This document shows positions 3,861 through 18,774 of a stretch of DNA of 55,213 bases, in pieces (the first letter of the stretch is position 1; every line of letters begins with the position of its first letter). The notes under the pieces are model-generated. The model worked only from the letters and a program-made list of their open reading frames with translations, did not search any database and was not told where the DNA came from. The translations under genes were made by a program, and so were the position numbers. The DNA lies in the NCBI GenBank assembly GCA_015522845.1, contig WALL01000009.1, positions 1-55,213 on the forward strand, read 5' to 3'. This DNA is from Nanobdellati archaeon. Lineage in GTDB: Archaea; B1Sed10-29; WALL01.

Positions 3861-4496
3861 ATGGCTAAAATAAAAACAGGCATCAAAGAATTCAATGAGA
3901 TAGCCACAGGGCTTCCAATGCCGTCTGCAATCCTCGTGCAAGGCCCGCCGGGTGCTGGCAAGTCAATATTTTCGCTGCTGCTAATGGACACCAGGGGGAA
4001 GGAGAAAAAAGTTGTGCTGCTCACAAACAACACCCCTGCTGAAATCAAGGAGGAGATGAAGGCCTCTAAAATAGGGTTCGAGCCAGGCATAATTGACTGC
4101 TATTCCTGGCTAAGCGGCGGCAAGGCGGCGGTTGACTCCCTTGCCAACTTGAGCAAGGTAACATTCCTCATTGAGGATGCCATCAGTGAGGGGGCCATCG
4201 TGCTTTTTGACTCGCTGACGCCGCTTATTCTCTACAATTCCGAGGAGGAGATAGAGCGCTTCATGCAGCAGGCCATTGCAATTGTTAAGTCCAAGGGCGC
4301 ACTGATACTGTTCACTCTTGACTCTAGCACCTATCCAAGCGATGCAGAGGAGACCTTCCGCTCGCTCTGCGATGGGGTGATAAGCCTAGACCCTGCTAAG
4401 GGGCTCACCATACTAAAAATGCGCGGCATGCAGGCACCCTCAAAGCCGTTCTTCTATGAGATAGGCGCAAAAGGGTTTAAGCTGAGGGCAAGATAG
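3861..4496 (+). CDS. KaiC/RecA-superfamily single-domain ATPase (paralog 1)
   Basis: Walker A GPPGAGKS, Walker B-like IVLFDSLT, and C-terminal LTILKMRG as in KaiC/RadA-like ATPases. Confidence 0.8.
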   Translation: MAKIKTGIKEFNEIATGLPMPSAILVQGPPGAGKSIFSLLLMDTRGKEKKVVLLTNNTPAEIKEEMKASKIGFEPGIIDCYSWLSGGKAAVDSLANLSKVTFLIEDAISEGAIVLFDSLTPLILYNSEEEIERFMQQAIAIVKSKGALILFTLDSSTYPSDAEETFRSLCDGVISLDPAKGLTILKMRGMQAPSKPFFYEIGAKGFKLRAR

Positions 4497-4542
4497 CAAG
4501 TTTAAACCCCCCTTAGAAAGGTTTAAATTCGCTGTTGCTGTA

Positions 4543-4881
4543 ATGTATCCAATGGCTAAGCTAAAGGGGATTGAGCTAGAAGACGACCACTTCCTTGTTA
4601 GCTTCCGCATAAGCAAAAGGGAATATGACCTTTTCAAGCACGGGAATAAGCACTTTTTGCTGGTCCCATTAAGTGGGATGTACAACCAGCTGACAATAGG
4701 CACACTTGGCAACTCCTACCGCCTTATGCTCCCCAAGAAATTCCTGAAGGAGCACGGGATAGCCGAGGACAAGCTGCCAAAAAAAGCAGATGCAGGGGTG
4801 TTTTCGATAGGCGGCGAGAAATACCTCACGGTTAGGATATCTAGCTCCACACTTGGGGAGCCACAGTTTGAGGGTGAATGA
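4543..4881 (+). CDS. AbrB/SpoVT-like small DNA-binding protein (tentative)
   Basis: GNSYRLMLPKKFLKEHGIAEDK resembles the swapped-hairpin (x-x-IPK-x-x-R-x-x-LGI) signature. The gene sits between two KaiC-like genes. Confidence 0.4.
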   Translation: MYPMAKLKGIELEDDHFLVSFRISKREYDLFKHGNKHFLLVPLSGMYNQLTIGTLGNSYRLMLPKKFLKEHGIAEDKLPKKADAGVFSIGGEKYLTVRISSSTLGEPQFEGE

Positions 4882-4882
4882 A

Positions 4883-5557
4883 ATGAAGCGCTATACTACT
4901 GGGCTATCCAACCTGGATAAGCTCATTGGGGGGGGGCTGCCAGAGCATACTGTTACGCTGCTGAGCGGCAATGCGGGCACAGGCAAAACCCTGTTTGCAC
5001 TTAATTTCCTCCTTGCTGGCGCAAAGAAAGGCGAGAAGGGCGTGTTCGTCTCCCTCAATGAGGGCAAGGGCGACCTGCTCCGCGCCTGCGATGGCATTGC
5101 CCAGCTAAAGCCAATCAGGAAATACCTCAACAAGAGCATACTAATCCAGGAGATTGACCTTGAGGAGGTAATCGACCTGGAATACTTCACAAAGATATTT
5201 GAGAAGTACTCAAATGTAGACCGCGTTGCCATTGACAACGTCAACAAGCTGCTTCTCTTTTCGAACGGCGACAAGGACTACCGCATCAACCTATCCCGTG
5301 TAATTAAGAACCTCCGCGCAAACGTCGGCTCCTCACTGCTGCTTTGCGAAACGCTCGACCATACGCTTGACACCAACCGTGGCGAGACCTACGAGGCAGA
5401 CGGTGTCATCAACCTATCCTTCCTTGAGGTAGAGGAAAAGCCAAGCCGCACGCTCGAAATAACAAAGATGCGCTACACCCCGTTTGATGCCTATGTCCAG
5501 CACGAGCTCTCAATCTCGAAGAAAGGCTTAAAACTGACCAAGGCGAAATTTATCTGA
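4883..5557 (+). CDS. KaiC/RecA-superfamily single-domain ATPase (paralog 2)
   Basis: MKRYTTGLSNLDKLIGGGLPEHTVTLLSGNAGTGKT (Walker A), VAIDNVN (Walker B) and LEITKMR. The ATG at 4883 lies 1 nt after the upstream stop, with GAGGGTGA upstream. Confidence 0.8.
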   Translation: MKRYTTGLSNLDKLIGGGLPEHTVTLLSGNAGTGKTLFALNFLLAGAKKGEKGVFVSLNEGKGDLLRACDGIAQLKPIRKYLNKSILIQEIDLEEVIDLEYFTKIFEKYSNVDRVAIDNVNKLLLFSNGDKDYRINLSRVIKNLRANVGSSLLLCETLDHTLDTNRGETYEADGVINLSFLEVEEKPSRTLEITKMRYTPFDAYVQHELSISKKGLKLTKAKFI

Positions 5558-6582
5558 TGAGGCTTTCCCACTCGCTGCATAGGGGCATACTTGAAGCAAC
5601 AGTGGGAGCACTTTTTAACCAGCTGATGATGGCCAGCGTTAGGCGGCGGAGGAATACGCTTTTTTTTGAGGGGATTGTGGCGGAGTACATCCGGGTATGC
5701 GAGCAGAGTGGCTACGCTGACAGGATGTTCAGCATTGGGCATAAGTGGTTCAGCATGATATTCTCAAGGCTATTCTCAAACAGGATATGGCATATGGGCC
5801 AAATGCTCGTCTTGGATAATGTCATACGCCCCCTTTGGATATCGCTGGGGGCGTTGGATGACATGGAAGTGGAGCTGCATGGCAGGGAGATATCCGTTGT
5901 AACGTACAACGACTCAATCATCCGGCTCATTGGGCCAAACCAGTTCTATGTGGGGATGGTGGTCGGGGGGCTTTCCCTCCTTTTCGGCAAAAAGGCAAAA
6001 TGCATAAAGGCACTGCAGACAAAGGCCAAGAGCAGCTACAGGCTGGTGCTTTTAGACGAGCCCCCCACGCAGTACCCCTCCATTCCGCTTGATGCCTACA
6101 ACGAAAAAAACCGCTTCACTCCGGAACCCGGGTTCAACCTGCAAATGGCCCTAAAGCAGAGAATGTTCGTTTTGGACGGCAACCATATAAAGTTTAGAGG
6201 GCGGGGGATATGGCATGTTGAGAACACAATATTCCACCTGCTCAGCAGCGAGAAAATCCTTCTCGACAAGGTTCCCCGTATATCCTATAACTACTTTAGG
6301 GAGGTTATCCAAAAAGGGGCAGGCAGCAAGGAAAAGCTCCGGATTCTAAAAACCCTTCTGCAGGTGATGGGATGGGGCAAGTTTAGCTTTGAGATGCAAG
6401 GGAAGTCAATTATCGTGAAAGCAACCAACCTGCCGGTTGGCTTCCAGAAAGGGAAAAGCGACTGGTCATTCCTATTCAGAGTCATAGAGGGGTATAGCTG
6501 GCTGATAAATAGGGGATACCGCCTGGCCTCGCTGGAGCAGGCACACAACTCTGCAATTGCCCGCTATTCCCTAACGGAATAG
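5557..6582 (+). CDS. Hypothetical protein with two V4R-like halves (tentative)
   Basis: The start overlaps the upstream stop (TGATG). The C-terminal part LLQVMGWGKFSFEMQGKSIIVKATNLP...FRVIEGYSWLINRGY, and the central part YVGMVVGGLSLLFGKKAKCI, resemble V4R (4-vinyl reductase) domains but lack the full Cys set. Confidence 0.4.
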   Translation: MRLSHSLHRGILEATVGALFNQLMMASVRRRRNTLFFEGIVAEYIRVCEQSGYADRMFSIGHKWFSMIFSRLFSNRIWHMGQMLVLDNVIRPLWISLGALDDMEVELHGREISVVTYNDSIIRLIGPNQFYVGMVVGGLSLLFGKKAKCIKALQTKAKSSYRLVLLDEPPTQYPSIPLDAYNEKNRFTPEPGFNLQMALKQRMFVLDGNHIKFRGRGIWHVENTIFHLLSSEKILLDKVPRISYNYFREVIQKGAGSKEKLRILKTLLQVMGWGKFSFEMQGKSIIVKATNLPVGFQKGKSDWSFLFRVIEGYSWLINRGYRLASLEQAHNSAIARYSLTE

Positions 6583-7365
6583 GCCGATAACGGACACAAG
6601 GATTATCCCAACGCGCATATAGTGGTGTGCCAGCCCGCTGTCTGAGCTTGCATAGGCAACAAGAGTGGAGGCAGCCAAAAAGGGGACAAGCCACAGCAGG
6701 AAAGGGACATTGCTGGCAATGACCATAATGCCCGCAACAGCAAAAGACAGCGCAACCACAGGTCTTGCCCGCCCAATCCCAAATAATGCGGCATATGTCC
6801 TCACTCCTGCCAGGCGGTCGCCATGTACATCCCGCATATCAGCAAGGACGCTCATCCCGAATATGATGGCAAATACCGCAATGGCGACCGCCGCCACAGC
6901 TGTGCTGAGCGGCCCGCCAGAGAAAACACCATAAAGAAAGTCAAGCAAGAAGCCAACTGCTATCGACATGTTCTTCAGATGCAAAATTCTCTTCCAGCCG
7001 AGCACGGAGTACATAAAGCCAATGGCGCCACCTCCCAGCAGCAACAAGAGGGGGAGCATCCCAAGCGCACCTGCCATGCATGCCGCGGCTATGGCACAGG
7101 CAGCTGAGACAAGCACCCCACTTTTTGAGGTGGCATAGCTGTTGATTCCCCTTCTGTTTGCGTAATCCTCTACAGTGTCAGTGTGTGTGTTGAACGAGTA
7201 GATGGAAATGATAAACAAGAACGCAGAGAGGAAGACAGTGGGCAGCTGGGCTGGAGCCCCACCCGCAAGCGTATAGCCCAGCACAGATATGGCCGCTGCA
7301 GATAGCCCAATCTTTATCCGGAGGTATCCCAAAATCTCAGAAAGGGGCAGCCTATTTTTTCTCAC
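6571..7365 (-). CDS. UbiA-family aromatic/isoprenoid prenyltransferase (polytopic membrane protein)
   Basis: Two Asp-rich motifs, NTHTDTVEDYANRRG and DMRDVHGDRLAGVRT, embedded in 8-9 hydrophobic helices. Confidence 0.75.
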   Translation of the reverse strand: MRKNRLPLSEILGYLRIKIGLSAAAISVLGYTLAGGAPAQLPTVFLSAFLFIISIYSFNTHTDTVEDYANRRGINSYATSKSGVLVSAACAIAAACMAGALGMLPLLLLLGGGAIGFMYSVLGWKRILHLKNMSIAVGFLLDFLYGVFSGGPLSTAVAAVAIAVFAIIFGMSVLADMRDVHGDRLAGVRTYAALFGIGRARPVVALSFAVAGIMVIASNVPFLLWLVPFLAASTLVAYASSDSGLAHHYMRVGIILVSVIGLFR

Positions 7366-8308
7366 TATGCTTCCCCTTCACAAACCGCCGCTTTTGACCG
7401 ATTGTTTCCGGCGGAAAGTTCTCATAGGTTAGAGGGTTTTTACGGACGCTCTTCACATGTATCCCTGACTCGTGTGCAAACGCGTTGTCGCCCACCCACG
7501 GCTTGTGCGGGCTGAGGGGGATGCCGCTGTACTCCCGCACCATTTTGCCTATCTCATGTATGAGCCCGATTTTCCACCCCCCATCCTGCCCGTACAGGTA
7601 CTTCAAGGCGAGTGTGACCTCCTCAATTGGCGCATTGCCCGCCCGCTCGCCAATGCCGCAGAACGTTCCGGAGAACGCATCTGCCCCCGCCTCGATTGCC
7701 GCAAGCGTGTTTGCGGTCGCCATCCCAAAGTCGTTGTGGTGGTGCGCCTCGATTCTGCAGTGCGCCCTTTCCTTCAGCTCGCTGAACAGCGAGTGGCTTT
7801 GTGCCGGCGTCATACAGCCAAGCGTATCGCCAACAAGCAGGTAGCCGATGTCGTCCTGTACAGCTTCCATGAACTCAAACAGGTACGCTTTGTCGGCACG
7901 GCTTGAGTCCTCGGCGGCATAATCAACACTCATGCCATAGTCGTGGCAGTAGTCAATCATGTCAAGCGCATAGCTAATGTTCTCCTCCCGTGTCCAGCCG
8001 AGCTTGTGCTCGAGGTGGATGTCCGAGACCGGCGAGACGAGAAGCACCCTCTTAACGCCGCAGCGTGCTGCAGCATCAACATCCGTCCTGCGCAGCCTGG
8101 CCAGCGCCCGTATCTCCGCCTTCAGGCCAAGCTCAACAAGCTCTTTTGTCACCCTTTCCTCTTCGGCTGACACTATGGGCATGTTTTCAATGAGCGATAC
8201 GCCAAACTCATCGATTTTCTCCGCGAGTGCCAGCTTCTGCTCAGGCGAGAAGCTTACGCCCGGCATCTGCTCCCCATCGCGCAGTGTCGTGTCAAAGATT
8301 TCGACCAT
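7352..8308 (-). CDS. HMGL-like synthase (homocitrate/2-isopropylmalate/citramalate synthase family), catalytic domain only
   Basis: MVEIFDTTLRDGEQMPGVSF..., HHHNDFGMATANTLAAIEAGA and HESGIH. At 318 aa it has no C-terminal LeuA-type regulatory domain. Confidence 0.8.
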   Translation of the reverse strand: MVEIFDTTLRDGEQMPGVSFSPEQKLALAEKIDEFGVSLIENMPIVSAEEERVTKELVELGLKAEIRALARLRRTDVDAAARCGVKRVLLVSPVSDIHLEHKLGWTREENISYALDMIDYCHDYGMSVDYAAEDSSRADKAYLFEFMEAVQDDIGYLLVGDTLGCMTPAQSHSLFSELKERAHCRIEAHHHNDFGMATANTLAAIEAGADAFSGTFCGIGERAGNAPIEEVTLALKYLYGQDGGWKIGLIHEIGKMVREYSGIPLSPHKPWVGDNAFAHESGIHVKSVRKNPLTYENFPPETIGQKRRFVKGKHSEKK

Positions 8309-8417
8309 CAGCGTGAATACTGCCGCCGTATATAAATAGCTTTCATTTTGTTAAAACAATTCATCAATGCGTTTAAACCACTATCTGTTTTTATATAAGA
8401 ACTTCCTCCTAGATATA

Positions 8418-9137
8418 ATGGTGAAGATAACTAGGGTGCCCACAGGCATTGATGGCTTAGACAGGCTTTTGCATGGGGGGTTTCCGCTGGGAAGCACAAC
8501 ACTTTTAGTTGGTGCCGCAGGCACAGGGAAGTCGACCTTCTGCAAGCAGTTTGCGTGGGAGGGCATAAGGGAAGGGGAATTAGCCATAGTGCTGCTCTCC
8601 GGCGAGCCCGTGTCCTCATTTATAGGCACAATGCAGGGGATGGGCTGGGCTATTGAAGGGCATAAGCAGGGCATACAGTTTGTCGACCTCTATTCATGGA
8701 GGGCACAGGCATCATTTAAAGACTCCAACCCGGGATACAATATCGCAAGCCCATCTGACTTGAACGACCTAAACAAGGAATTTAAGGGCCTGCTGGAGAA
8801 GGCAGATGGGAGGAGGGTAAGGGTTATTGTTGACTCTATCTCAGATGCCCTCTTATACAACTCACCACAGTCAGTCTTCAAGTTTATGCAGCTCTTTGTT
8901 GCGCAGGTAAGGCACAAGGGCGCAACAGCGCTGGCAGTCCTGGAGGGCGGGCTCCATCCTGAAGACCAAAGCAACACGCTGGAGTACATTACCGACAATT
9001 TAATTGAGATGAAGCTTGGTGGCGGCAAAAGGCAAATGCGCATACGGAAGATGGCATCAACACAGCACCCCCTAAATTGGATAAGCTACACAATTGGCAA
9101 GGGGATAGAGATGAAAGTGTCGCCAATTTTCGGGTAA
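8418..9137 (+). CDS. KaiC/RecA-superfamily single-domain ATPase (paralog 3, HPLxW subtype)
   Basis: MVKITRVPTGIDGLDRLLHGGFPLGSTTLLVGAAGTGKSTFCKQF, VIVDSIS, and a C-terminal QHPLNWISYTIGKGIEMKV. tttttatataag lies about 20-30 nt upstream, suggesting a leaderless transcript. Confidence 0.8.
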   Translation: MVKITRVPTGIDGLDRLLHGGFPLGSTTLLVGAAGTGKSTFCKQFAWEGIREGELAIVLLSGEPVSSFIGTMQGMGWAIEGHKQGIQFVDLYSWRAQASFKDSNPGYNIASPSDLNDLNKEFKGLLEKADGRRVRVIVDSISDALLYNSPQSVFKFMQLFVAQVRHKGATALAVLEGGLHPEDQSNTLEYITDNLIEMKLGGGKRQMRIRKMASTQHPLNWISYTIGKGIEMKVSPIFG

Positions 9138-9176: not shown

Positions 9177-9857
9177 ATGATAGAGCGAGTTCCAACCGAC
9201 ATAGAAGGCCTTGACGAGATGCTTGGCGGCGGCTTCCTTAAGAAGAGGCATGTCCTTGTTACAGGCGGGCCAGGCACAGGCAAGACCACATTTGGGATGG
9301 AGTTCCTTTACCGCGGCGCGCTGCGCGGGGAAAAGGGGCTCATGGTGATGCTTGAGGAAAAGCCAGAGAAGCTCGTCGAAAACCTCCAGCAGGGCATGGA
9401 CTGGGACCTGGAGGAACAGCTAAAAAACGACAACATAATCCTTGTTTCCATTGACAGCTTTAGCTGGGAGCGCCTTAGTGACACGCTGCAGTCGTACATT
9501 ACCCGCCACAACGTGAAGCGCGTTGTGGTGGACACGCTTACGCTGCTAAAGATGAACACAAAGGACCCGTTTGAGTTCAGGAGGCAGATAATCGGGCTGC
9601 TTGGGTTTTTAGAGAACTTGGACTGTACGGTGCTCTTTACCTCGGAGGCACCTTACCCAACACGTGAGGGTGCAAGGTATTCCATCGAAGAGTTTATCGT
9701 AGATGGCGTCATTGCGCTTTACAACATCCCAATCAAGAACGAGCGCAGGCGGGCGCTGGAGATCCTAAAGATGCGGGGGGTTGACCACTCCAATGCAATG
9801 TACCCATTTAAGATTACCAAGTCGGGCATCGTCATCTACCCGGAGGAGATAATCTAA
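9177..9857 (+). CDS. KaiC/RecA-superfamily single-domain ATPase (paralog 4, KMRG subtype)
   Basis: MIERVPTDIEGLDEMLGGGF...VTGGPGTGKTTF, VVVDTLT and LEILKMRGVDHS. Confidence 0.85.
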   Translation: MIERVPTDIEGLDEMLGGGFLKKRHVLVTGGPGTGKTTFGMEFLYRGALRGEKGLMVMLEEKPEKLVENLQQGMDWDLEEQLKNDNIILVSIDSFSWERLSDTLQSYITRHNVKRVVVDTLTLLKMNTKDPFEFRRQIIGLLGFLENLDCTVLFTSEAPYPTREGARYSIEEFIVDGVIALYNIPIKNERRRALEILKMRGVDHSNAMYPFKITKSGIVIYPEEII

Positions 9858-10642: not shown

Positions 10643-10672
10643 ATATAAACTGCCAAGTGCCATTGTTAAGCC

Positions 10673-12026: not shown

Positions 12027-12877
12027 TGGACTTTGAGAGGATAGTCAATGCTGCCGCTGAGGCGATTTTTGTCTTAGACCGGTCCGGCAACTTTTCTTTT
12101 ATAAATAAGCATGCCATTCGCCAGAGCGGCTACAGCAAAAAGGACATAATTGGGAAGAATGCGCTGCGCTTAATCCCAAAAAGCCATTGGAAGAGGGCAA
12201 TGGAAACATTCAGCCAGATACTTTTAGGCAGGGTGGTAAAGTCGGTGGAGTATCCCGTCCGCTACAAGTCTGGCAAGGTTGTAATAATGGAATTCACTGG
12301 CAAGCCGCTTAGCGAGAACGGCAAGATTGTTGGGGCGATAGGGACTGCGCGTGACATAACAAAAAGGAAGGAATTAGAGGAGGGGCGGGAACAGGCCAGG
12401 CGGATGCTGCGCTTTATCATAGACAGCCTGCCAATGCGTGTCTTTTGGAAAGGCAGGAGCTTGCGCTATCTTGGCTGCAACCGGGCATTTGCGGAGGACG
12501 CTGGCTATCATTCCCCCAGCGAGATAATTGGGAAGACAGACTTTGAAATGGCATGGAAAAAGCAGGCAAGGCAGTATAGGAGAGACGACCGCTATGTAAT
12601 ACGCACAGGAAGGGAAAAGCTAAACTACGAGGAGCCGCAGGCATCGGCTGGCGGGAAGCTCCGCTGGTTGAGGACAAGCAAGCGGCCGCTAAGGGGCGCA
12701 AGCGGCAAGGTGATTGGTGTCCTTGGGGTTTACGAGGATATAACCAAGCAAAAGGGCATTAACAGCAGCTTAAAGGAGAAGATTGCAGAGCTAGAGCGCT
12801 TCCAGAGGTTTTCAGTTGGACGGGAGCTGCGCATGGTTGAGCTGAAGAAAAAGCTAAGGGAGTGCAAAAAGAGATGA
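12026..12877 (+). CDS. Tandem PAS-domain sensor protein with a C-terminal coiled coil (no output domain)
   Basis: PAS 1: AAEAIFVLDRSGNFSFINKHAIRQSGYSKKDIIGKN. PAS 2: IIDSLPMRVFWKGRSLRYLGCNRAFAEDAGYHSPSEIIGKTDFE. The start overlaps the upstream stop. Confidence 0.75.
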   Translation: MDFERIVNAAAEAIFVLDRSGNFSFINKHAIRQSGYSKKDIIGKNALRLIPKSHWKRAMETFSQILLGRVVKSVEYPVRYKSGKVVIMEFTGKPLSENGKIVGAIGTARDITKRKELEEGREQARRMLRFIIDSLPMRVFWKGRSLRYLGCNRAFAEDAGYHSPSEIIGKTDFEMAWKKQARQYRRDDRYVIRTGREKLNYEEPQASAGGKLRWLRTSKRPLRGASGKVIGVLGVYEDITKQKGINSSLKEKIAELERFQRFSVGRELRMVELKKKLRECKKR

Positions 12878-13815
12878 TTCCCATCCCCTTTTCTGGGGCT
12901 GCCCCCCTTGCACTGCTGCTGATAATAATCCTGCTCCTAACGGCAATGGCCATTCTTGTATGGGTGTACCAAGAGGATAGGCATGATGCGCGCAAGAAGG
13001 AGGCACGCATAAAGAGGGCGATGGCTGAGCTAAGGAGAAAGGAGAAAGAGGCACAGGAAAGCAAGGCTGAGCTTGAGAAGACAAAGCTTGCACTAATGAA
13101 CATGGTTGAGGACCTGAGCGGGTCCTACGAAAAGCTAAAGGAGCTTGACAGGCTAAAATCGGATTTTGTCACCAATGTGTCACATGAGCTTCGCACGCCA
13201 ATAACCACCATTACGCTGTCATTTGACCTGCTGCGGAAGGAAAAGGACAAGGCAAAGCGCAATGAGCTTTTAAGGATGATGCAGCGCAACGTTGGCAGGC
13301 TTAGCCGGACAGTAAATACCATCTTGGACTTCTCTGCAATGGAGGCTGGTGCAGTAAGGGTTTCTAAAGAGAAAGTTGAGCTGCGCAGCCTTATTAGGGA
13401 AGTTTCCCAAGAGGAAATGCCAAAGGCAAGGGTAAAAGGCATAGCACTAACGGTGAAGGCCCCAGCAGGGATATGGGTTTATGCTGACCGTGAGCTTGCC
13501 CACAGGGCACTGCTGAACATAGTTGATAATGCAATTAAGTTTACTGATAAGGGATGTGTAAGAATATATGCAAAGAAGCAAAAGGATTATATCATTGTAA
13601 GTGTTAAGGATAGTGGCAGGGGAATCCGCAAGTCTGACCTGCCAAAGATATTTGGAAAGTTCGCCAAGCTTGAAGAGCATGTTCCAGGCTCAGGAATTGG
13701 GCTTTGGGTCAGCAAGAAGATAATTGAACAGCATGGCGGCAAGATCGAAGCTAAAAGCAAGCGGGGGGCTGGCACTGAGATTACAGTCACCTTCCCAATG
13801 GCGGCAAAAAAATGA
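12874..13815 (+). CDS. Membrane-anchored histidine kinase (HisKA + HATPase_c)
   Basis: N-terminal TM helix, H-box SHELRTPITTI, N-box NAIKFT, and G-boxes DSGRGI and GSGIGL. The ATG at 12874 overlaps the PAS gene stop (ATGA). Confidence 0.85.
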   Translation: MIPIPFSGAAPLALLLIIILLLTAMAILVWVYQEDRHDARKKEARIKRAMAELRRKEKEAQESKAELEKTKLALMNMVEDLSGSYEKLKELDRLKSDFVTNVSHELRTPITTITLSFDLLRKEKDKAKRNELLRMMQRNVGRLSRTVNTILDFSAMEAGAVRVSKEKVELRSLIREVSQEEMPKARVKGIALTVKAPAGIWVYADRELAHRALLNIVDNAIKFTDKGCVRIYAKKQKDYIIVSVKDSGRGIRKSDLPKIFGKFAKLEEHVPGSGIGLWVSKKIIEQHGGKIEAKSKRGAGTEITVTFPMAAKK

Positions 13816-14168
13816 AAAAAATCCTTGTGGTTGAGGACGAGCCGGATGAGGCAAAGTCCATGCAGATGGTCCTTGAAGGGGAGGGGTATTCTGTTGCCAT
13901 AGCGCCAGATGGCAAGGAAGCAATTGACAGCATGCAAGGCGCTGACCTAATTGTGCTTGATATAATCTTGCCGCGGCTGCATGGGGATGCAGTCCTCCGG
14001 GAAATGAAGAAGAGGGGGATAAAGAAGCCAGTTGTAGTTGTTACTGCTGTCTCTAGGGAAGTAGGCGTTGAAAAAGACCTAAGGCAGATAAAAAGGGACA
14101 TAGTTTTCTTACAAAAGCCCTTTTCCTCAAGTGAGCTTGTGGCTGCAGTCTCCTCAAAAATCAGATAA
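13812..14168 (+). CDS. CheY-like single-domain response regulator (receiver only)
   Basis: MKKILVVEDEPDE..., phospho-acceptor context LIVLDIILP, and a conserved K in LQKPF. ATGA overlap with the kinase gene. Confidence 0.85.
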   Translation: MKKILVVEDEPDEAKSMQMVLEGEGYSVAIAPDGKEAIDSMQGADLIVLDIILPRLHGDAVLREMKKRGIKKPVVVVTAVSREVGVEKDLRQIKRDIVFLQKPFSSSELVAAVSSKIR

Positions 14169-14208: not shown

Positions 14209-14958
14209 ATGGAACGGGTGCCAACTGGTATTGATGGGTTGGATGATATGATTGAAGGGGGCTTCCCCCGCGGAAGGACGGTCCTGCTAAGCGGCGGTTG
14301 CGGCACAGGAAAGTCCATCTTTGGCCTGCAGTTCCTTTATAAGGGAGCAGTTGACTATGATGAGCCCGGCGTTTATGTAACCGTTGATGAGCGCCCAGAG
14401 CTAACGCGGCAGGATATGCTCCGGTTTGGGTGGGACATAGCCTCACTTGAGGAGCAGGGAAAGCTTGTCATGCTGGACCTTACTGGCTCCAAGATTGGTG
14501 TCCAGACAGGGGAAAAATATGCGCTGAACTCCGCTCTGGACATAGACCGCCTTGTGCTAAAGATAATGCAGACTGCAGGCGAGATTGGGGCACGGCGGCT
14601 GGTCATTGACTCGCTCCCAGCGTTAGGCTTCCACCTAAAGGGGGAAGCAGAAGTCCGCAACATGATACTGAAGCTTACATATATGATTAGAAAGAGCGAC
14701 TTAACAGCAGTCTTGATCTCAGAAGTCCCAGAGCAGACGCCAGGAAGCGGCCCAATGATGTTTTCAAAATATGGCGTTGAGGAGTACGTGGCAGACAGTG
14801 TCATACTGCTGCACTACCTTGGCATGGGCACAGACACAAACCGCACGCTTTATGTCCGCAAGATGCGCGGGACAAAGCACATTGAAGACATAATCCCCAT
14901 GCATATAACCGAGGCAGGGATAAAGCTAGTTAACCCGGACGAGGCCTTTAGCGTATAG
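14209..14958 (+). CDS. KaiC/RecA-superfamily single-domain ATPase (paralog 6, KMRG subtype)
   Basis: MERVPTGIDGLDDMIEGGFPRGRTVLLSGGCGTGKSIF, LVIDSLP and LYVRKMRGTKH. Confidence 0.85.
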   Translation: MERVPTGIDGLDDMIEGGFPRGRTVLLSGGCGTGKSIFGLQFLYKGAVDYDEPGVYVTVDERPELTRQDMLRFGWDIASLEEQGKLVMLDLTGSKIGVQTGEKYALNSALDIDRLVLKIMQTAGEIGARRLVIDSLPALGFHLKGEAEVRNMILKLTYMIRKSDLTAVLISEVPEQTPGSGPMMFSKYGVEEYVADSVILLHYLGMGTDTNRTLYVRKMRGTKHIEDIIPMHITEAGIKLVNPDEAFSV

Positions 14959-14979
14959 CTGCCGCCCCCTTCCAACAAT

Positions 14980-15058: not shown

Positions 15059-15082
15059 CTTGCTAGGAAAAGGCCGCTACAC

Positions 15083-15394: not shown

Positions 15395-15443
15395 CACAAA
15401 CAAAGAAGGAAGGTTTAAATTTAAAGATATCGCTAAAGCAGGT

Positions 15444-16709
15444 GTGTTGGACATAGCGCTGTTTAGGGATAACCCTGAGCTAATTAAAAAAGGGCTGGAA
15501 AGGCGAAAAGCCGACCCCCAGATTGTGGATAAGGTAATCCAGCTTGACAAGGAGTGGCGCGACGCACTTAAGGTGGCTGAAGAGCTAAAGCACCGCAGGA
15601 ATGTTGCCACAAGGGAAGTTGCTGAGCTTAAAAAGGGGGGCAAGGACGCTAGTGGGAAGATTGCTGAGCTAAAAGGGGTCTCTGACAGCATTGCGCAACA
15701 AGACCGCCTGATCTCAAAGAAGAAAAGCGCAAGGGACGCGCTGCTCATGCGCGTGCCAAACCTGCTCCATGAAAGTGTCCCCTACGGAGAAAGCGGGGAA
15801 GACAATGTTGAGGTTCGCAAATGGGGCAGCCCAAAGGCAAGGGAAATCCCCCCTCACGGCGAGATCCTTGAGCAGATGGGGCTTGCCGACTTCAAAGGTG
15901 CTGCGAAAATAGCGGGTGCAGGGTTTTATTTCTTAAAGGGTGATATTGCATTGCTGGACTATGCACTGCAGCGGCTTGCAATTGACTCGCTTGTTGAGAA
16001 AGGGTTTACGCTTATAGAGCCGCCGTTCATGATGAACAGGAAGGCTTATGAGGGCGTAACAGACCTTGCAGACTTTGAAAATGTGATGTACAAGATCGAA
16101 AACGAAGACCGTTACATGATTGCAACCTCCGAGCACCCACTCGTTGCGATGAAAATGGGGGGGGTTATTCCTGAGGAAGAGCTACCAATAAAGATGGTAG
16201 GCATAAGCACAAACTTCCGGAAGGAGATCGGTGCCCACGGCGTTGACACAAGGGGGATATTCCGCGTCCACCAGTTCAACAAAATTGAACAGATTGTGAT
16301 ATGCCGGCCAGAGAAGTCATGGGACTGGTTCGAAAGGCTGATAGGGAATGCAGAGGACATATTCCAAAGGCTGGAGCTGCCATACCGTGTAGTGAACATA
16401 TGCACAGGCGACATAGGGACGGTTGCCGCGAAGAAGTACGACCTTGAAGTGTGGTCACCAAGGCAGGGCAGGTATACTGAGGCAGTAAGCTGCTCCAATG
16501 TAACGGACTACCAGGCAAGGCGGCTGAACATAAAATATGGGAAGCGCGGCGGGGAAAAGGCGCTGGTGCACACGCTTAACTCGACGGCAATCGCTACATC
16601 CCGTGCAATTGTCGCACTTGTTGAGAACGGCTATGAAGAAGGTGTGGTGCGGCTGCCAAAGGCACTTTGGCCATATATGGGCGGGAAGAAAGAGATTAGC
16701 GGGAAATGA
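15444..16709 (+). CDS. serS: Seryl-tRNA synthetase
   Basis: N-terminal coiled-coil arm MLDIALFRDNPELIKKGLERRKAD and class II motifs (FRKEIGAHGVDTRGIFRVHQFNKIEQ, GRYTEAVSCSN, LNSTAIATSR). GTG start. Confidence 0.95.
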   Translation: MLDIALFRDNPELIKKGLERRKADPQIVDKVIQLDKEWRDALKVAEELKHRRNVATREVAELKKGGKDASGKIAELKGVSDSIAQQDRLISKKKSARDALLMRVPNLLHESVPYGESGEDNVEVRKWGSPKAREIPPHGEILEQMGLADFKGAAKIAGAGFYFLKGDIALLDYALQRLAIDSLVEKGFTLIEPPFMMNRKAYEGVTDLADFENVMYKIENEDRYMIATSEHPLVAMKMGGVIPEEELPIKMVGISTNFRKEIGAHGVDTRGIFRVHQFNKIEQIVICRPEKSWDWFERLIGNAEDIFQRLELPYRVVNICTGDIGTVAAKKYDLEVWSPRQGRYTEAVSCSNVTDYQARRLNIKYGKRGGEKALVHTLNSTAIATSRAIVALVENGYEEGVVRLPKALWPYMGGKKEISGK

Positions 16710-17400
16710 TCTCGACTCCCCTCTCCCCCTTTATCTTGAACTCAAACCACTGCAGGGGGTGTGGGGCATTTATCACCCTATCAAACTTAACAAAACGCTT
16801 GCCCCCTTCAATCTTAAATAATATTGTGTTGTCAGTTGCATAAATAAGCGTGTTCATCTCCTTTTCACTGTGGAGGCCCTTTTCCACAACAACGATTGAT
16901 GTTGCCTTAAGCGACCGCACAAAAGCAGTGAATAGCTGGAGGAACATGAACACCGACTTTGGCTCGGAATACAGCAGGAAGTCTGAAATAGAATCAATTA
17001 CAATCCTGCCGCCTTTGCCACGCCAGTTGGCTGCCTTTTTGATTATCCTAAGCAACTCATTTAGGTTGCTTAAAGAGGGAAGCATCTTAACATCTTCTGT
17101 TTCAGCGGGAGGGGAATCTGTCCTCCATGAATAGCAGTCAATGAAAATTAACTGGCCTTTGTAGCTTGCTGGATCATGCCCTTCCCGCCTCATTGTCTCT
17201 TTGACCTGGTCAATTGGCGCACAACTTACAATATAGATGCCAAATTCCCCCTGCCCTAGCCCCTCGTACAAAAACTGCCTCGCAAATGTGCTCTTGCCAG
17301 TTCCTGGAGATCCAACTACCAGCGAAGTGGATGGGGATGGGAATCCCCCGCTAATTATCTTATTCATTCCCTTAACTCCAAATGGCTTTTGACTGTCCAT
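16696..17400 (-). CDS. KaiC/RecA-superfamily single-domain ATPase (paralog 7, HPLxW subtype)
   Basis: GVKGMNKIISGGFPSPSTSLVVGSPGTGKSTFARQF, IVIDSIS and PHPLQWFEFKIKGERGVEI. Convergent with serS, overlapping it by 14 nt. Confidence 0.8.
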   Translation of the reverse strand: MDSQKPFGVKGMNKIISGGFPSPSTSLVVGSPGTGKSTFARQFLYEGLGQGEFGIYIVSCAPIDQVKETMRREGHDPASYKGQLIFIDCYSWRTDSPPAETEDVKMLPSLSNLNELLRIIKKAANWRGKGGRIVIDSISDFLLYSEPKSVFMFLQLFTAFVRSLKATSIVVVEKGLHSEKEMNTLIYATDNTILFKIEGGKRFVKFDRVINAPHPLQWFEFKIKGERGVEIISR

Positions 17401-17529
17401 TGCCTTATATATTTATGGAAGGTGCTAATTATATCTGCCTACTAAATGTTTATACATAAAGGCAAAATCCATTATAAAAGGTATGCCCTAAAGGGATATA
17501 TACCTGGATGCAAATAGTTGGGTGGGAAC

Positions 17530-18774
17530 ATGGGGATACATATCCAAGCAGGCACAGCCTGGTCAAAGGCAAAAAGCGCAAAAAAAGCTGGCGAGGAGGC
17601 AGCAAAGGCAGCCATGAAAAGGGCAGGGGCAGATAGCTGTAACTTCGTCCTGGTGTTTGCCTCTTCCAAATACGCCCCACAAAAGGTGCTTGACGGTGTG
17701 ACAAAAGTAACAGGGAATGCGCCACTCTACGGCTGCACAACGGCAGGGGAAATAAATGAGAAAGGGGCATATGACGGCTCCGTAACTGTAATGGTAATAA
17801 AGTCAAAATATGTGCGCGTGGGGGTTGGGGTTGCAACTGGCGTGCGCAAGAGCCCTGCTGCTGCAGGAGAAAAGGCAGCGACCAATGCGCTGAAAGCACT
17901 TAAAAGAGAGCCGCGCCTGCAGTCCCTTGCACTGTTTAAAAAATCCTCTTGGGAAATGGTCAAGTTTCACCCATATATCTGCCTTGACACAATAGATGGG
18001 CTTTCGGGCCAGGAAGAGGATGTTCTGAATGGGATAATGCAGGTAATGGGGACCAACCCAATTATCGGCGGGTCTGCCGGGGACGACCTAAAGCTGAAGA
18101 AAACCTACCAGTTCTGCAATGGCAAGGCGTACACCGATGCTGTTGTGGCGGCTGTAATTTCAACAGACCTCTACACAAGCATTGTCTCAAAGCATGGCTG
18201 GAAGCCATTGTCAAAGACAGTAGTTGCCACGAAAACAGATGGCAGGAAGCTCATTGAGATAAACCACCGCCCTGCTGTTGAGGGGTATGCAAAGCTGCTA
18301 AAATGCGACCCCAAAAAGCTAATACAAGAAGGCACAATCGCATTTGGGACTGGGCTGGAATACCCCCTTGCCATACCAGACATAAGCGGGGAGCCCTGGC
18401 TAAGGCATCCCTTTTCTGTTGAAAAGGATGGCTCAATAGACTTCTTCTCTAGAATCCCAAAAACTGCCGTCCTTCAGCTGATGAAGGGGAAGAAGGAATG
18501 GCTCATCCAAGCAGGAGAGCAGGCAGCACGGGAAGCAAAGAGAAAAGCGGGTGGCACGCCTGCCTGTGGCATAATGTTCAATTGCGTGGCAAGGAAAGCG
18601 CTGTTGGGCAAGCAGGCTGGCACTGAAATCAAGGAGATTAGCAAGCTATTGAATGCCCCCTTTGCAGGGTTTTATACCTATGGCGAGCAATCCCCAACCA
18701 GCCGTGGGGCGAATGGGCACAAGAACCAAACAATTAACCTGCTGCTGTTTGCTGACAAGCTGATAACTGACTAA
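17530..18774 (+). CDS. FIST-domain sensory protein (FIST_N + FIST_C)
   Basis: NFVLVFASSKYAPQKVLDGV...LYGCTTAGEI, IIGGSAGD, and FNCVARKALLGKQAGTEI...FAGFYTYGEQ are typical FIST signatures. Confidence 0.7.
   Translation: MGIHIQAGTAWSKAKSAKKAGEEAAKAAMKRAGADSCNFVLVFASSKYAPQKVLDGVTKVTGNAPLYGCTTAGEINEKGAYDGSVTVMVIKSKYVRVGVGVATGVRKSPAAAGEKAATNALKALKREPRLQSLALFKKSSWEMVKFHPYICLDTIDGLSGQEEDVLNGIMQVMGTNPIIGGSAGDDLKLKKTYQFCNGKAYTDAVVAAVISTDLYTSIVSKHGWKPLSKTVVATKTDGRKLIEINHRPAVEGYAKLLKCDPKKLIQEGTIAFGTGLEYPLAIPDISGEPWLRHPFSVEKDGSIDFFSRIPKTAVLQLMKGKKEWLIQAGEQAAREAKRKAGGTPACGIMFNCVARKALLGKQAGTEIKEISKLLNAPFAGFYTYGEQSPTSRGANGHKNQTINLLLFADKLITD

What the first reader, a model, noticed from the sequence alone, without database searches (positions are those of the whole stretch)
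3861..18774. Seven single-domain KaiC/RecA-like ATPase paralogs in 13.5 kb, embedded in sensor and regulator genes
ORFs starting at 3861, 4883, 8418, 9177, 11310 and 14209 (all +) and at 17400 (-) each carry Walker A G-x-x-G-x-GK[ST], a hydrophobic-D-S/T/N Walker B, and the xGxxGLDxxLxGGxP N-terminal motif.

They fall into two visibly different subtypes:
- One ends in ...KMRG/KMR (3861, 4883, 9177, 14209).
- One has GTGKSTF[CA][KR]QF and a C-terminal HPLxW...G.E motif (8418, 11310, 16696).

Between them lie two V4R-type proteins, an AbrB-like protein, a polytopic membrane protein, a tandem-PAS protein, a TM histidine kinase, a CheY-like receiver and a FIST protein.

Comparative genomics has proposed KaiC-like ATPases as archaeal signalling hubs. 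This density and the alternation of two subtypes suggest a multi-ATPase signalling or switch complex whose wiring is uncharacterised.
Basis: partly seen in the sequence, partly recalled or inferred. Interest (0 to 1): 0.75.

Follow-up and report, generated by a model that had tools for sequence, protein, structure and literature searches.

The report
KaiC-like ATPase cluster beside pilus genes
A small uncultured DPANN archaeon carries seven KaiC-like ATPase genes of two alternating classes, mixed with sensor genes and sitting next to pilus genes; this is an expanded form of a pilus-linked regulatory module shared by several DPANN phyla, and it extends an already published idea.

Summary
Seven single-domain PF06745 (KaiC) genes lie in 3861-17400, and the window has no others. 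They are not RadA, RadB, ArlH or circadian KaiC by curated cut-offs.

Bootstrapped phylogeny and Pfam DUF7504 hits give:
- Class I (4883, 9177, 14209): canonical catalytic Glu pair and K-M-R finger.
- Class II (3861, 8418, 11310, 17400): the three B copies lack the Arg finger. The 3861 copy lacks the catalytic Glu and is closest to ArlH/FlaH.

Gene order alternates perfectly: II-I-II-I-II-I-II.

Synteny is conserved. Iainarchaeum relatives have a core 3861-type/9177-type/V4R/11310-type/HK/RR/14209-type, divergent from a type IV pilus operon. A Micrarchaeota genome has the same class I + class II + V4R + HK + RR set. Nanohaloarchaeota loci place the pair (an Aenigmatarchaeota locus the class II gene with V4R genes) directly beside an ArlI/PilB-type ATPase, where arlH sits in archaellum operons.

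Best reading (confidence 0.55): a sensor-fed KaiC-like module controlling a type IV filament, expanded here by merging two modules and adding PAS, 7TM and FIST inputs.

KaiC-T4P association and "KaiC hubs" are published, so this is a new variant of a known kind. Interest 0.5.

The parts
79..3821 (-). Four type IV pilin-like genes: 79-534, 507-962, 947-1360 and 1368-3821 (817 aa). This is the near end of a type IV filament operon that runs off the contig.
   Evidence: All four have class III-type signal peptides: [KR]G followed by a hydrophobic helix, e.g. MRGQAATEFLLILGF. Orthologues in L004/L022/L006/L010 continue into T2SSE and T2SSF genes. There are no significant Pfam hits, only weak DUF7287/DUF7266.
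3822..3860 (.). 39-bp divergent intergenic region containing the palindromic AT-rich element TATATAATATATAAA (3836-3852). Inferred to be a shared bidirectional TATA region for leaderless transcripts.
   Evidence: Read directly from the sequence. Promoter function is an inference and was not tested.
3861..4496 (+). A1: class II KaiC-like protein, ArlH/FlaH-like. Walker A and B are intact. The catalytic Glu pair is replaced by Asn-Asn.
   Evidence: PF06745 67 bits and DUF7504 48 bits. Best PDB sequence match is S. acidocaldarius FlaH 4yds, E 8e-10. Best NCBIfam hits are FlaH/ArlH at 64/50 bits against cut-offs of 194/215. NN is conserved in the four orthogroup members compared (window plus three orthologues). 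The clade has 100% bootstrap and its grouping with B has 98%. It lies next to the large pilin-like gene in five genomes.
4543..4881 (+). Small putative SpoVT/AbrB-type protein. The likely start is 4552, judging from orthologues.
   Evidence: PF04014 E 0.007, below cut-off. Three of four orthologues hit. No PDB sequence match. It precedes the A2-type gene in L010, L021 and L023.
4883..5557 (+). A2: class I KaiC-like ATPase (N-E at the catalytic pair, KMRY finger).
   Evidence: PF06745 119 bits. Motifs. Orthogroup has 100% bootstrap.
5557..6582 (+). 341-aa protein made of two alpha/beta domains with a Bet3/BcsD/H-NOX-like (V4R-related) fold. It lacks the V4R Cys cluster. Putative ligand- or partner-binding protein.
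   Evidence: No Pfam or NCBIfam hit. Only 7 clusters among 5.8e9 proteins. AF2 model has pLDDT 83 and pTM 0.84. Foldseek top matches are BcsD, TRAPP TPC6/Bet3, YslB and H-NOX, E from 5e-4, TM 0.5-0.6 per domain. hhalign against V4R is not significant.
6571..8308 (-). UbiA prenyltransferase (6571-7365) and HMGL-like synthase (7352-8308). These metabolic genes recur between KaiC-like genes in Iainarchaeia. Whether they belong to the system is uncertain.
   Evidence: Pfam hits. The same pair lies between the A2/341-aa genes and a B-type gene in L021. UbiA alone occupies that position in L010 and L023.
8418..9137 (+). B1: class II KaiC-like protein. Walker A and B and one catalytic Glu are kept. 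The Arg of the K-x-R finger is lost (RKMAS).
   Evidence: PF06745 119 bits and DUF7504 44 bits. Motifs. TTTATATAA at 8391-8399 favours the 8418 start over 8367.
9177..9857 (+). A3: class I canonical KaiC-like ATPase (EE, KMRG). It is the conserved partner of B-type genes.
   Evidence: PF06745 215 bits. Adjacent to a B-type gene in L009/L019, L011-L014, L017 and L018, and one gene (V4R) away from B2 in L004/L006. Clade has 99% bootstrap.
9857..10642 (+). V4R-domain protein (V4R at residues 198-257 with Cys217/Glu241/Cys244/Cys252). Predicted small-molecule or redox sensor.
   Evidence: PF02830 48 bits against a cut-off of 31. Similar to the MsvR V4R region, E 1.5e-9. V4R genes sit next to the KaiC pair in L004, L006, L009, L011-13, L015 and L023.
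10673..11320 (+). Polytopic membrane protein (about 6-7 hydrophobic segments). Possible membrane sensor, specific to this lineage.
   Evidence: Hydropathy analysis. Weak HisKA_7TM hit, E 0.003. Absent at this position in L004/L006.
11310..12026 (+). B2: class II KaiC-like protein, the member of the conserved core. The finger Arg is lost (VERMFN).
   Evidence: PF06745 114 bits and DUF7504 57 bits. AF2 pLDDT 93, closest fold is PH0284, TM 0.83. Orthologues in L004/L006 are 63-65% identical.
12026..12877 (+). Tandem-PAS protein, a lineage-specific input.
   Evidence: PAS_4/PAS hits with two stretches. Absent in L004/L006.
12862..14168 (+). Two-component pair. Membrane-anchored histidine kinase (12862-13815) and stand-alone receiver (13812-14168).
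   Evidence: HisKA 62 bits, HATPase_c 93 bits, Response_reg 70 bits. H-box H108, N/G1/G2 boxes, and D50/T78/K102 are present. Conserved in L004, L006 and Micrarchaeota L019.
14209..14958 (+). A4: class I canonical KaiC-like ATPase (DE, KMRG). It is the copy closest to the KaiC CI domain and PH0186.
   Evidence: PF06745 235 bits. PDB hits PH0186 at 197 bits and KaiC at about 195-219 bits. Clade has 100% bootstrap.
16696..17400 (-). B3: class II KaiC-like protein, the most degenerate copy. The catalytic Glu is lost (CAP) and the finger is lost (DRVIN). Probably binds nucleotide without hydrolysing it.
   Evidence: PF06745 103 bits and DUF7504 35 bits. Motifs. Outside this organism's own contigs (L001) no copy next to SerRS/FIST was seen.
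17530..18774 (+). FIST_N+FIST_C sensor protein, divergent from B3 across a 129-bp gap.
   Evidence: FIST 162 bits and FIST_C 100 bits. Intergenic sequence.

Best explanation
The locus belongs to an uncultured Iainarchaeia (Diapherotrites, DPANN) archaeon. It is an expanded version of a regulatory module that DPANN archaea keep in or beside their type IV filament (pilus) loci.

Unit of the module:
- A canonical KaiC-like ATPase (class I): catalytic Glu pair plus the trans-acting K-x-R residues.
- A divergent KaiC-like partner (class II). It keeps Walker A and B but has lost the finger Arg. In the 3861 and 17400 copies the catalytic Glu is lost.
- A V4R sensor protein.

Proposed mechanism (inferred, not shown):
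- Ligand or redox state is sensed by V4R. In this genome, the added PAS, 7TM, FIST and histidine kinase/receiver proteins also sense inputs.
- These inputs set the nucleotide, phosphorylation and oligomeric state of the class I ATPases.
- The class I ATPases act on or assemble with the ArlH-like class II proteins.
- The class II proteins then modulate the PilB/ArlI-type assembly ATPase, as ArlH does for ArlI. Alternatively, they affect transcription of the divergent pilin operon through the small AbrB-like protein, as the KaiC-like CirA affects arl gene expression.

Origin of the seven copies: fusion of two modules that are separate in a relative (A1-A3-V4R-B2-HK-RR-A4 and AbrB-A2-341aa/UbiA-HMGL/B1), plus an extra B3-FIST pair.
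For: Shown:
- Seven PF06745 genes with Walker A and B.
- Two superclasses. The split {A1 + B} versus the rest has 98% bootstrap, and each Iainarchaeia orthogroup has 90-100%. Independently, DUF7504 hits occur only in A1, B1, B2 and B3.
- Class-specific, lineage-conserved changes at residues that in KaiC are catalytic (E77/78, E318/319) or act from the neighbouring subunit (K457/R459; PMC2777353).
- Gene order is II-I-II-I-II-I-II. In L004 it is II-I-II-I.
- The nine genes from 8418 to 14958 are co-directional, with overlaps or gaps of 40 bp or less.
- The core is conserved in three Iainarchaeum genomes at 63-65% identity. The same five-gene set (class I, V4R, RR, HK, class II) occurs in Micrarchaeota.
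- The class I/class II pair directly abuts an ArlI/FlaI-like T2SSE gene in five of the six Nanohaloarchaeota loci, and the class II gene alone does so in L016 and in the Aenigmatarchaeota locus L015. A pilin gene lies nearby in L013 and L015, and split ArlJ-like genes in L013.
- In five Iainarchaeia genomes the A1-type gene is the immediate divergent neighbour of the large pilin-like gene, even where the rest is rearranged (L010, L023).
- A1's best matches are FlaH/ArlH.

Precedents:
- ArlH binds ATP, does not hydrolyse it, autophosphorylates, and forms a hexamer on ArlI (bioRxiv 10.1101/2021.03.19.436134; PMC8978795).
- cirA is divergent from the arl genes and represses them (PMC10983859).
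- KaiC-family genes are associated with archaeal T4P loci (PMC4858521).
- Two kaiC copies were noted in Nanohaloarchaeota T4P clusters (PMC9563170).
Against: - No experiment exists, and no interaction was computed because no multimer prediction was available.
- Within Iainarchaeia, wider synteny is also conserved (SerRS, LysRS, polyprenyl synthase, transglutaminase). Adjacency to the pilus operon there could therefore reflect shared ancestry rather than function.
- In Micrarchaeota the nearest T2SSE gene is about 3.3 kb from the histidine-kinase end of the module (about 6 kb from the class I gene), with unrelated genes between.
- None of the seven reaches the ArlH cut-off.
- The T2SSE and T2SSF of the adjacent operon lie beyond the contig end and are inferred from relatives.
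- B1, A2 and B3 have metabolic or tRNA-synthetase neighbours and no pilus link of their own.
- The loss of the finger Arg is read from alignments, not from structures of assemblies.
Confidence: 0.55

Rival explanations
1. General-purpose KaiC-like signalling hub, essentially the first reader's reading. The ATPases integrate several sensors and control unknown, possibly many, targets. Proximity to pilus genes is incidental.
For: Several different sensor types are present: V4R, PAS, FIST, 7TM and HK/RR. In the Micrarchaeota locus no T2SSE gene abuts the module; the nearest is about 3.3 kb away. B1, A2 and B3 have no pilus neighbours. Wider synteny is conserved in Iainarchaeia. The hub hypothesis is published (cited in PMC5847659 and PMC6393860).
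Against: It does not explain why the class II gene directly abuts an ArlI-type ATPase gene in eight loci from two further phyla. It also does not explain why A1 stays next to the pilin gene across rearrangements.
Confidence: 0.25
2. At least the second module (AbrB-A2-341aa / UbiA-HMGL / B1) regulates isoprenoid or membrane-lipid metabolism rather than pili.
For: UbiA, HMGL-like, undecaprenyl-type prenyltransferase, polyprenyl synthase or FAD oxidoreductase genes are interleaved with KaiC-like genes in the window, L010, L021 and L023.
Against: All cases come from one class (Iainarchaeia), so this may be inherited gene order. The metabolic genes are on the opposite strand. No such genes lie next to the pair in other phyla.
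Confidence: 0.1
3. A KaiC-based timer (circadian or hourglass clock).
For: Class I copies resemble the KaiC CI domain strongly (A4 scores 194-219 bits to KaiC structures). A histidine kinase and receiver are present, loosely recalling SasA/RpaA.
Against: All copies are single-domain. Scores are far below the circadian KaiC cut-offs (at most 192 against 408; at most 154 against 546). No KaiB- or KaiA-like hit occurs among the cluster genes. The kinase has no KaiB-like N-terminal domain.
Confidence: 0.04
4. RadA paralogues (aRadC/RadB-like) acting in recombination or repair, an Elp4/5/6-like ring acting with Elp3, or an anti-phage defence island.
For: Weak hits to Rad51, RadB and PAXNEB/Elp4 (B2 scores 49 bits on PF05625). 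An Elp3-like gene lies at 46858-48342. The structural neighbour SSO2452 is a RadA paralogue. Weak mad8 hits in PADLOC.
Against: RadA and RadB models score at most 28 bits against cut-offs of 172-361. KaiC hits are two- to five-fold stronger than the PAXNEB hits. Elp3 is 30 kb away. No nuclease, helicase or defence partner is in the cluster. PADLOC hits cover only the P-loop. The conserved neighbours are sensors and pilus genes.
Confidence: 0.04

Closest known systems
ArlH (FlaH), the KaiC-like component of the archaellum motor
   Same: Single RecA/KaiC-like domain with Walker A and B. Encoded beside an ArlI-type ATPase and an ArlJ-type platform gene. A1's best PDB and NCBIfam matches are FlaH/ArlH. 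The DPANN pairs sit between ArlJ-like and ArlI-like genes. A1 has an amide (Asn) where euryarchaeal ArlH has Gln at the catalytic position (bioRxiv 10.1101/2021.03.19.436134).
   Different: Scores are far below ArlH cut-offs (at most 62 against 215). No protein examined reached the curated ArlF or ArlG cut-off, and archaellin models were not specifically searched. Two distinct KaiC-like classes plus a V4R protein stand where an archaellum operon has a single ArlH.
T4P-associated KaiC-family ATPases of archaea (Makarova, Koonin & Albers 2016, PMC4858521) and the 'KaiC hubs' proposal (Makarova et al. 2017; not held in the library, known from citing papers)
   Same: KaiC-family genes sit in or next to archaeal type IV pilus loci and are linked with sensor and two-component genes. 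They are predicted regulators.
   Different: That work was based mainly on euryarchaeal and TACK genomes. I did not find the following in the accessible literature: the class I + finger-less class II pairing, its constant V4R partner, its DPANN distribution, and a seven-copy alternating array. The 2017 paper could not be read, so overlap cannot be excluded.
CirA of Haloferax volcanii
   Same: KaiC-like gene transcribed divergently from type IV filament (arl) genes, and it controls their expression (PMC10983859).
   Different: CirA is a single gene in a haloarchaeon. No orthology was tested, and it has no V4R or class II partner.
Pyrococcus horikoshii PH0284 / PH0186 and cyanobacterial KaiC CI domain
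   Same: Same fold. The B2 model matches PH0284 at TM 0.83. A4 scores 197 bits to PH0186 and about 195-219 bits to KaiC. Class I keeps the Glu pair and the K-x-R.
   Different: Those proteins are homo-hexamers, or double-domain in the case of KaiC. Class II here lacks the Arg that KaiC supplies from the neighbouring subunit (PMC2777353).

Membership tests
KaiC/RecA-like ATPase family (Pfam PF06745) | Profile score above the gathering cut-off (26.6 bits) over the whole domain | tested here: met
   All seven score 67-235 bits and cover about 220 of 231 profile positions.
KaiC/RecA-like ATPase family (Pfam PF06745) | Walker A GK[ST] and Walker B hhhhD | tested here: met
   Present in all seven and in all orthologues compared.
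Circadian KaiC | Two tandem KaiC domains and a score above NCBIfam cut-offs (NF006799 408; TIGR02655 546) | tested here: not met
   All are single-domain, 211-249 aa. Best scores are 192 and 154 bits.
Circadian KaiC | KaiB (and KaiA) partner genes | tested here: not met
   No KaiB or KaiA Pfam hit in any gene of the 1.4-20.8 kb region. The rest of the window was only partly scanned.
ArlH/FlaH | Score above the NCBIfam equivalog cut-off (NF052589 215; PRK06067 194) | tested here: not met
   Best scores are 62 bits (B1) and 64.5 bits (A1). A1's top PDB match is FlaH 4yds, E 8e-10.
ArlH/FlaH | Encoded in an archaellum operon with arlI, arlJ, archaellins and arlF/G | tested here: inconclusive
   ArlI-like and ArlJ-like genes flank the pair in DPANN loci, but they fall below the equivalog cut-offs (397 against 550; 92 against 550). 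No protein examined reached the ArlF or ArlG cut-off; the L013 pilin hits both only weakly (22-26 bits against 110). In the window only pilin-like genes are present before the contig ends.
RadA / RadB recombinases | Score above NCBIfam cut-offs (RadB 172; RadA 259-361) | tested here: not met
   At most 28 bits.
GvpD | PF07088 above its cut-off (24 bits) and a gas-vesicle gene context | tested here: not met
   At most 22 bits, and there are no gvp genes.
DUF7504 (PF24336), a divergent KaiC-like group | Score above the cut-off (27 bits) | tested here: met
   A1 47.7, B1 44.1, B2 57.0 and B3 35.5 bits. A2, A3 and A4 have no hit. The hits overlap the stronger PF06745 hits.
V4R domain (PF02830) | Profile score above the cut-off (31 bits) and the conserved Cys/Glu cluster | tested here: met
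   For 9857-10642: 48 bits, with C217, E241, C244 and C252.
V4R domain (PF02830) | The same features, applied to 5557-6582 | tested here: not met
   No Pfam hit. hhalign gives E 0.06 and probability below 1%. Only fold-level resemblance to BcsD/Bet3/YslB/H-NOX. The Cys cluster is absent.
Two-component system | HisKA with the phospho-accepting His plus HATPase_c N/G boxes; a receiver with the phospho-accepting Asp | tested here: met
   Pfam hits. H108, N219, G1 at 250, G2 at 276, and D50/T78/K102 are present.
SpoVT/AbrB (PF04014) | Score above the cut-off (24.7 bits) | tested here: inconclusive
   16.7 bits. Three of four orthologues hit sub-threshold. No PDB sequence match.
Type IV filament locus | Prepilin-like class III signal peptides, a T2SSE ATPase and a T2SSF/TadC/ArlJ platform protein | tested here: met
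   Signal peptides are present in four window proteins. T2SSE and T2SSF are found in the orthologous operon of L022. In the window itself these two genes lie beyond the contig end.
Anti-phage defence systems (PADLOC) | A full-length hit to a defence protein model | tested here: not met
   Only partial P-loop hits to mad8, at most 32 bits.

The most novel reading that the evidence does not exclude
Class I and class II proteins form obligate mixed rings. Only interfaces where a class I subunit donates its K-x-R finger are hydrolysis-competent, so the assembly is asymmetric, like alpha3beta3 or Elp456.

With the V4R protein, this ring would be the DPANN equivalent of ArlH. It would be a ligand-gated clutch on the pilus assembly ATPase that lets these host-dependent archaea extend or retract attachment pili in response to host or metabolite cues.

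The seven-gene alternating array would then encode several such rings with different sensors converging on one filament.
Probability: 0.2. Interest if true: 0.75.

Novelty: new variant of a known kind. Interest (0 to 1): 0.5.

Why it matters
Archaeal KaiC-like ATPases are abundant. One is among the most abundant proteins of the DPANN archaeon Nanoarchaeum equitans (PMC3149612). Apart from ArlH, GvpD and CirA, they have no demonstrated function.

DPANN archaea live attached to hosts, and pili are thought to mediate that contact (PMC9563170). How they regulate pili is unknown, and they have few classical signalling genes (PMC5847659).

A conserved, compact module of two KaiC-like classes plus a V4R sensor beside the pilus ATPase gives concrete hypotheses that can be tested in vitro:
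- which proteins bind which;
- which subunit hydrolyses ATP;
- which ligand V4R binds.

The class-specific loss of the trans-acting Arg also offers a natural experiment on how RecA-type rings divide labour.

Tried and rejected
- The Makarova 2017 mBio paper (DOI and PMC5717392) is not held. I rely on papers that cite it, so overlap with my class II/V4R observations cannot be excluded.
- Literature searches for KaiC with V4R, 4VR or FIST gave nothing relevant. One returned only 'fistula' papers.
- BLASTP of 5557-6582 against the V4R protein showed no similarity. hhalign of their family alignments was not significant.
- A profile of the AbrB-like family against PDB sequences gave only chance-level hits.
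- Pfam and NCBIfam scans of the pilus-operon proteins gave only weak DUF hits. Their pilin nature rests on the signal peptides.
- The first bootstrap script timed out. It was redone with a faster distance routine.
- Rejected readings: RadA/RadB recombinases, GvpD, circadian KaiC and a defence island. An Elp456-like partner of the Elp3 gene at 46.9 kb was also rejected, because there is no linkage and the KaiC scores are stronger.
- I first assumed from memory that ArlH lacks a catalytic Glu. The ArlH paper shows E57 is conserved, and is Gln in Euryarchaeota, so I dropped that argument.
- Monophyly of all B-type proteins including the Nanohaloarchaeota ones is weak (44%). The affinity of the Nanohaloarchaeota class I partners (A3 versus A4) is unresolved at 22-28%.

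Full report
**1. What is in the sequence**

ORF listing and translation followed by Pfam scans show seven single-domain proteins. All hit PF06745 (KaiC) above its 26.6-bit cut-off.

| Name | Coordinates | Bits |
|---|---|---|
| A1 | 3861-4496 | 67 |
| A2 | 4883-5557 | 119 |
| B1 | 8418-9137 | 119 |
| A3 | 9177-9857 | 215 |
| B2 | 11310-12026 | 114 |
| A4 | 14209-14958 | 235 |
| B3 | 16696-17400 (-) | 103 |

A profile built from the seven finds nothing else in the 55 kb window. The density therefore cannot be a chance effect.

Other genes in the interval:
- A sub-threshold AbrB-like gene (4543-4881).
- A 341-aa protein with no family hit (5557-6582).
- UbiA and an HMGL-like synthase on the minus strand (6571-8308).
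- A V4R protein (9857-10642).
- A polytopic membrane protein (10673-11320).
- A tandem-PAS protein (12026-12877).
- A one-TM histidine kinase with an intact H-box and N/G boxes (12862-13815).
- A receiver with D50/T78/K102 (13812-14168).
- Seryl-tRNA synthetase (15444-16709).
- A FIST_N+FIST_C protein (17530-18774).

The nine genes from 8418 to 14958 are co-directional, with overlaps or gaps of at most 40 bp. That layout is operon-like.

**2. What the seven are not**

Against NCBIfam, none approaches the curated cut-offs for these families:
- ArlH: best 62 bits against 215.
- FlaH subfamily: 64.5 against 194.
- RadB: 28 against 172.
- RadA: at most 25 against 259-361.
- Circadian KaiC: 192 against 408, and 154 against 546.

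PADLOC gives only partial P-loop hits.

**3.

Pairwise identities and NJ trees with orthologues from related loci resolve five orthogroups. Bootstrap support is A1 100%, A2 100%, A3 99%, A4 100%, and B of Iainarchaeia plus Micrarchaeota 90%.

A deep split separates {A1 + all B-type} from the rest at 98%. Pfam agrees independently. Only A1, B1, B2 and B3 also exceed the DUF7504 cut-off. I therefore call A2, A3 and A4 class I, and A1, B1, B2 and B3 class II.

Key columns across 34 sequences, with the B-family alignment, were read against KaiC. In KaiC, E77/78 and E318/319 are catalytic, and K457/R459 reach the ATP of the neighbouring subunit (PMC2777353).
- Class I keeps the Glu pair (EE, DE or NE) and K-M-R.
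- Every B-type protein keeps [RK]-M but has lost the Arg.
- The four A1-type sequences compared have Asn-Asn instead of the Glu pair.
- B3 alone among B copies has also lost the Glu (CAP).

The B family also has invariant F[IV]DxYSW[RK] and ExGxH motifs, and a nearly invariant HPLxW motif.

The B2 model is confident (pLDDT 93). It is a standard KaiC-like fold, closest to the P. horikoshii PH0284 hexamer at TM 0.83.

With A1 reassigned, the chromosomal order is II-I-II-I-II-I-II. Only one of the 35 possible orders of four class II and three class I genes alternates perfectly.

**4. Source and relatives**

Identical segments occur in metagenome contigs. The closest homologues are from Candidatus Iainarchaeum / Diapherotrites MAGs and a single-cell genome.

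B-type homologues are scarce. A word-indexed search of 5.8e9 proteins found about 15 close clusters. About 60 of the 1.84e9 representatives carry the YSW and ExGxH motifs without KMR.

In GTDB species genomes, B-type genes were found only in DPANN lineages: Iainarchaeum, Micrarchaeota, Nanohaloarchaeota and Aenigmatarchaeota. That scan used a single peptide pattern, so absence elsewhere is not proven.

**5. Synteny**

Two Iainarchaeum genomes and a related single-cell genome (L004/L022, L005, L006) share a simpler core: A1 - A3 - V4R - B2 - HK - RR - A4. It is transcribed divergently from an operon that runs from a 913-1213 aa pilin-like gene through several small pilin-like genes. In L022, where the flank reaches far enough, that operon continues to T2SSE and T2SSF.

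In the same lineage, a second module lies about 50 kb into a different contig (L021). It reads AbrB-like - A2 - 341aa | prenyltransferase, UbiA, HMGL (minus strand) | B-type - double-domain KaiC.

The window therefore combines both modules. Module II is inserted between A1 and A3. The window also adds a 7TM protein, a PAS-PAS protein and a B3/FIST pair that the relatives lack.

More divergent Iainarchaeia (L010, L023) are rearranged. They still keep A1 directly divergent from the large pilin-like gene, and AbrB-A2 beside UbiA, followed by the 341-aa gene in L010 and perhaps by a 361-aa unannotated gene in L023.

Outside this class:
- A Micrarchaeota genome has class II | class I - V4R - 59aa - RR - 130aa - HK. 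This is the same five gene types as the core.
- Five of the six Nanohaloarchaeota loci have class I and class II genes back to back (L016 shows only the class II gene); three of the five also carry a small V4R gene. In all six the class II end is followed immediately by a FlaI/ArlI-like T2SSE gene. In L013 a pilin gene and a split ArlJ-like gene lie upstream.
- An Aenigmatarchaeota locus has V4R - class II - V4R | T2SSE - pilin.

In L013 the pair occupies the place between arlJ-like and arlI-like genes that arlH occupies in archaellum operons.

As a rough estimate (my own, not computed), a random gene in a genome of about 1 Mb lies within 10 kb of one of two or three T2SSE genes a few percent of the time. 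Repeated adjacency in separate phyla is therefore unlikely to be chance.

**6. The pilus side in the window**

The four minus-strand genes at 79-3821 all begin with class III (prepilin-type) signal peptides. The contig ends before the ATPase.

The gap to A1 is 39 bp and consists largely of the palindrome TATATAATATATAAA. I read this as a shared bidirectional TATA region for leaderless transcripts. That reading is an inference.

A1 is the copy whose best PDB and NCBIfam matches are FlaH/ArlH.

**7. The other reader claims**

- The 341-aa protein belongs to a tiny family of 7 clusters.
- Its model (pLDDT 83, pTM 0.84) has two alpha/beta domains. Their best structural neighbours are BcsD, TRAPP TPC6/Bet3, YslB and H-NOX.
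- From general knowledge, these folds are grouped with V4R. However, no V4R structure was among the top matches, and profile comparison is not significant. 'V4R-type' is supported only at superfamily-fold level.
- The AbrB assignment remains sub-threshold.

**8. Mechanism**

Shown:
- Gene content.
- Class-specific residue patterns.
- Conserved pairing of the two classes.
- Conserved V4R partner.
- Conserved linkage to type IV filament genes.

Inferred by analogy:
- ArlH binds ATP without hydrolysing it, autophosphorylates, and forms a hexamer on ArlI. Phosphorylation weakens that interaction (PMC8978795).
- CirA, a KaiC-like gene divergent from the arl genes, represses their transcription.

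I propose that class II proteins are the ArlH-like effectors on the assembly ATPase. Class I proteins would be the catalytically competent partners that set their state, possibly within mixed rings where class I supplies the missing Arg. V4R, PAS, FIST, 7TM and the HK/RR pair would feed in signals. My confidence is 0.55.

The main rival is a general hub with incidental pilus proximity (0.25). A lipid-metabolism link for module II is possible (0.1). Clock, recombination, Elp456-like and defence readings are unlikely.

**9. Comparison with the literature and novelty**

- Association of KaiC-family ATPases with archaeal T4P loci, and their prediction as regulators, is published (PMC4858521).
- The hub hypothesis is published (cited).
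- Two kaiC copies in Nanohaloarchaeota T4P clusters have been noted in passing (PMC9563170).

I did not find the following in the accessible literature:
- The split into a canonical class and a finger-less class.
- Their obligate pairing with a V4R protein.
- The DPANN-wide distribution.
- The seven-copy alternating array.

The key 2017 paper could not be read. I rate this a new variant of a known kind, with interest 0.5. It is solid and testable, but not a surprise to a specialist.

Noticed in passing
window 50674-54459 (+): A second type IV filament core lies here: a T2SSE ATPase (50674-52329, PF00437 175 bits) followed by two T2SSF/ArlJ-like membrane proteins (52329-53597 and 53599-54459). 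The ATPase is a paralogue, not the orthologue, of the T2SSE in the operon next to the KaiC cluster in relatives (310 bits to the L022 T2SSE). No KaiC-like gene lies beside it.
   Followed up: partly
window 3822-3860: Only 39 bp separate the start codons of the divergent pilin-like gene and A1. Most of it is the palindrome TATATAATATATAAA, which suggests one bidirectional TATA element and leaderless mRNAs.
   Followed up: partly
window 21959-22055 (-): Rfam finds a 97-nt tRNA match (57 bits) that ARAGORN does not report. It is probably an intron-containing archaeal tRNA next to tRNA-Phe.
   Followed up: no
L006 13832-15352 versus window 19289-20839 and L004 13943-15493: The window and two Iainarchaeum MAGs have a class I lysyl-tRNA synthetase (PF01921) between the polyprenyl synthase and SerRS genes. 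At the same syntenic position, single-cell genome AM-311-L14 has a class II-type synthetase (tRNA_anti-codon + tRNA-synt_2). This may be an in-place displacement.
   Followed up: no
window 6571-8308 (-), 20841-21842 (+); L021 8989-11488; L023 2617-3798 and 6696-8448: Isoprenoid/lipid-type genes are repeatedly interleaved with KaiC-like genes in Iainarchaeia loci. They include UbiA, an HMGL-like synthase, a cis-prenyltransferase, polyprenyl synthase and an FAD oxidoreductase.
   Followed up: partly
L021 12431-13894: In a related Iainarchaeum genome, the B-type gene of module II is followed by a double-domain (487 aa) KaiC-like protein and three small ORFs of about 100 aa. In the window, the single-domain A3 follows B1 instead.
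   Followed up: no
window 39380-41335 (-) and 43083-45038 (-): Two anaerobic ribonucleotide reductase (NrdD + ATP-cone) paralogues, both 651 aa, lie 1.7 kb apart. The second is much more divergent (209 against 587 bits).
   Followed up: no
window 15083-15748 (-) and 18947-19285 (+): Two ORF-list artefacts. The 221-aa ORF is probably only a conserved 106-aa C-terminally anchored protein (15083-15403), as called in L001 and seen in L004/L006. The 112-aa ORF overlaps tRNA-Lys (18902-18977) and is spurious.
   Followed up: partly
window 46858-48342 (+): An Elp3-like radical SAM protein is present (ELP3_N, Radical_SAM, Radical_SAM_C). I noted it because class II KaiC-like proteins give secondary hits to Elp4/Elp5 families. 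No linkage was found.
   Followed up: partly
L013 10691-11280: In the Nanohaloarchaeota locus L013, two tandem hydrophobic ORFs of 98 aa each lie between the class II KaiC gene and the V4R gene. In the window a 7TM protein lies between V4R and B2. No similarity was tested.
   Followed up: no
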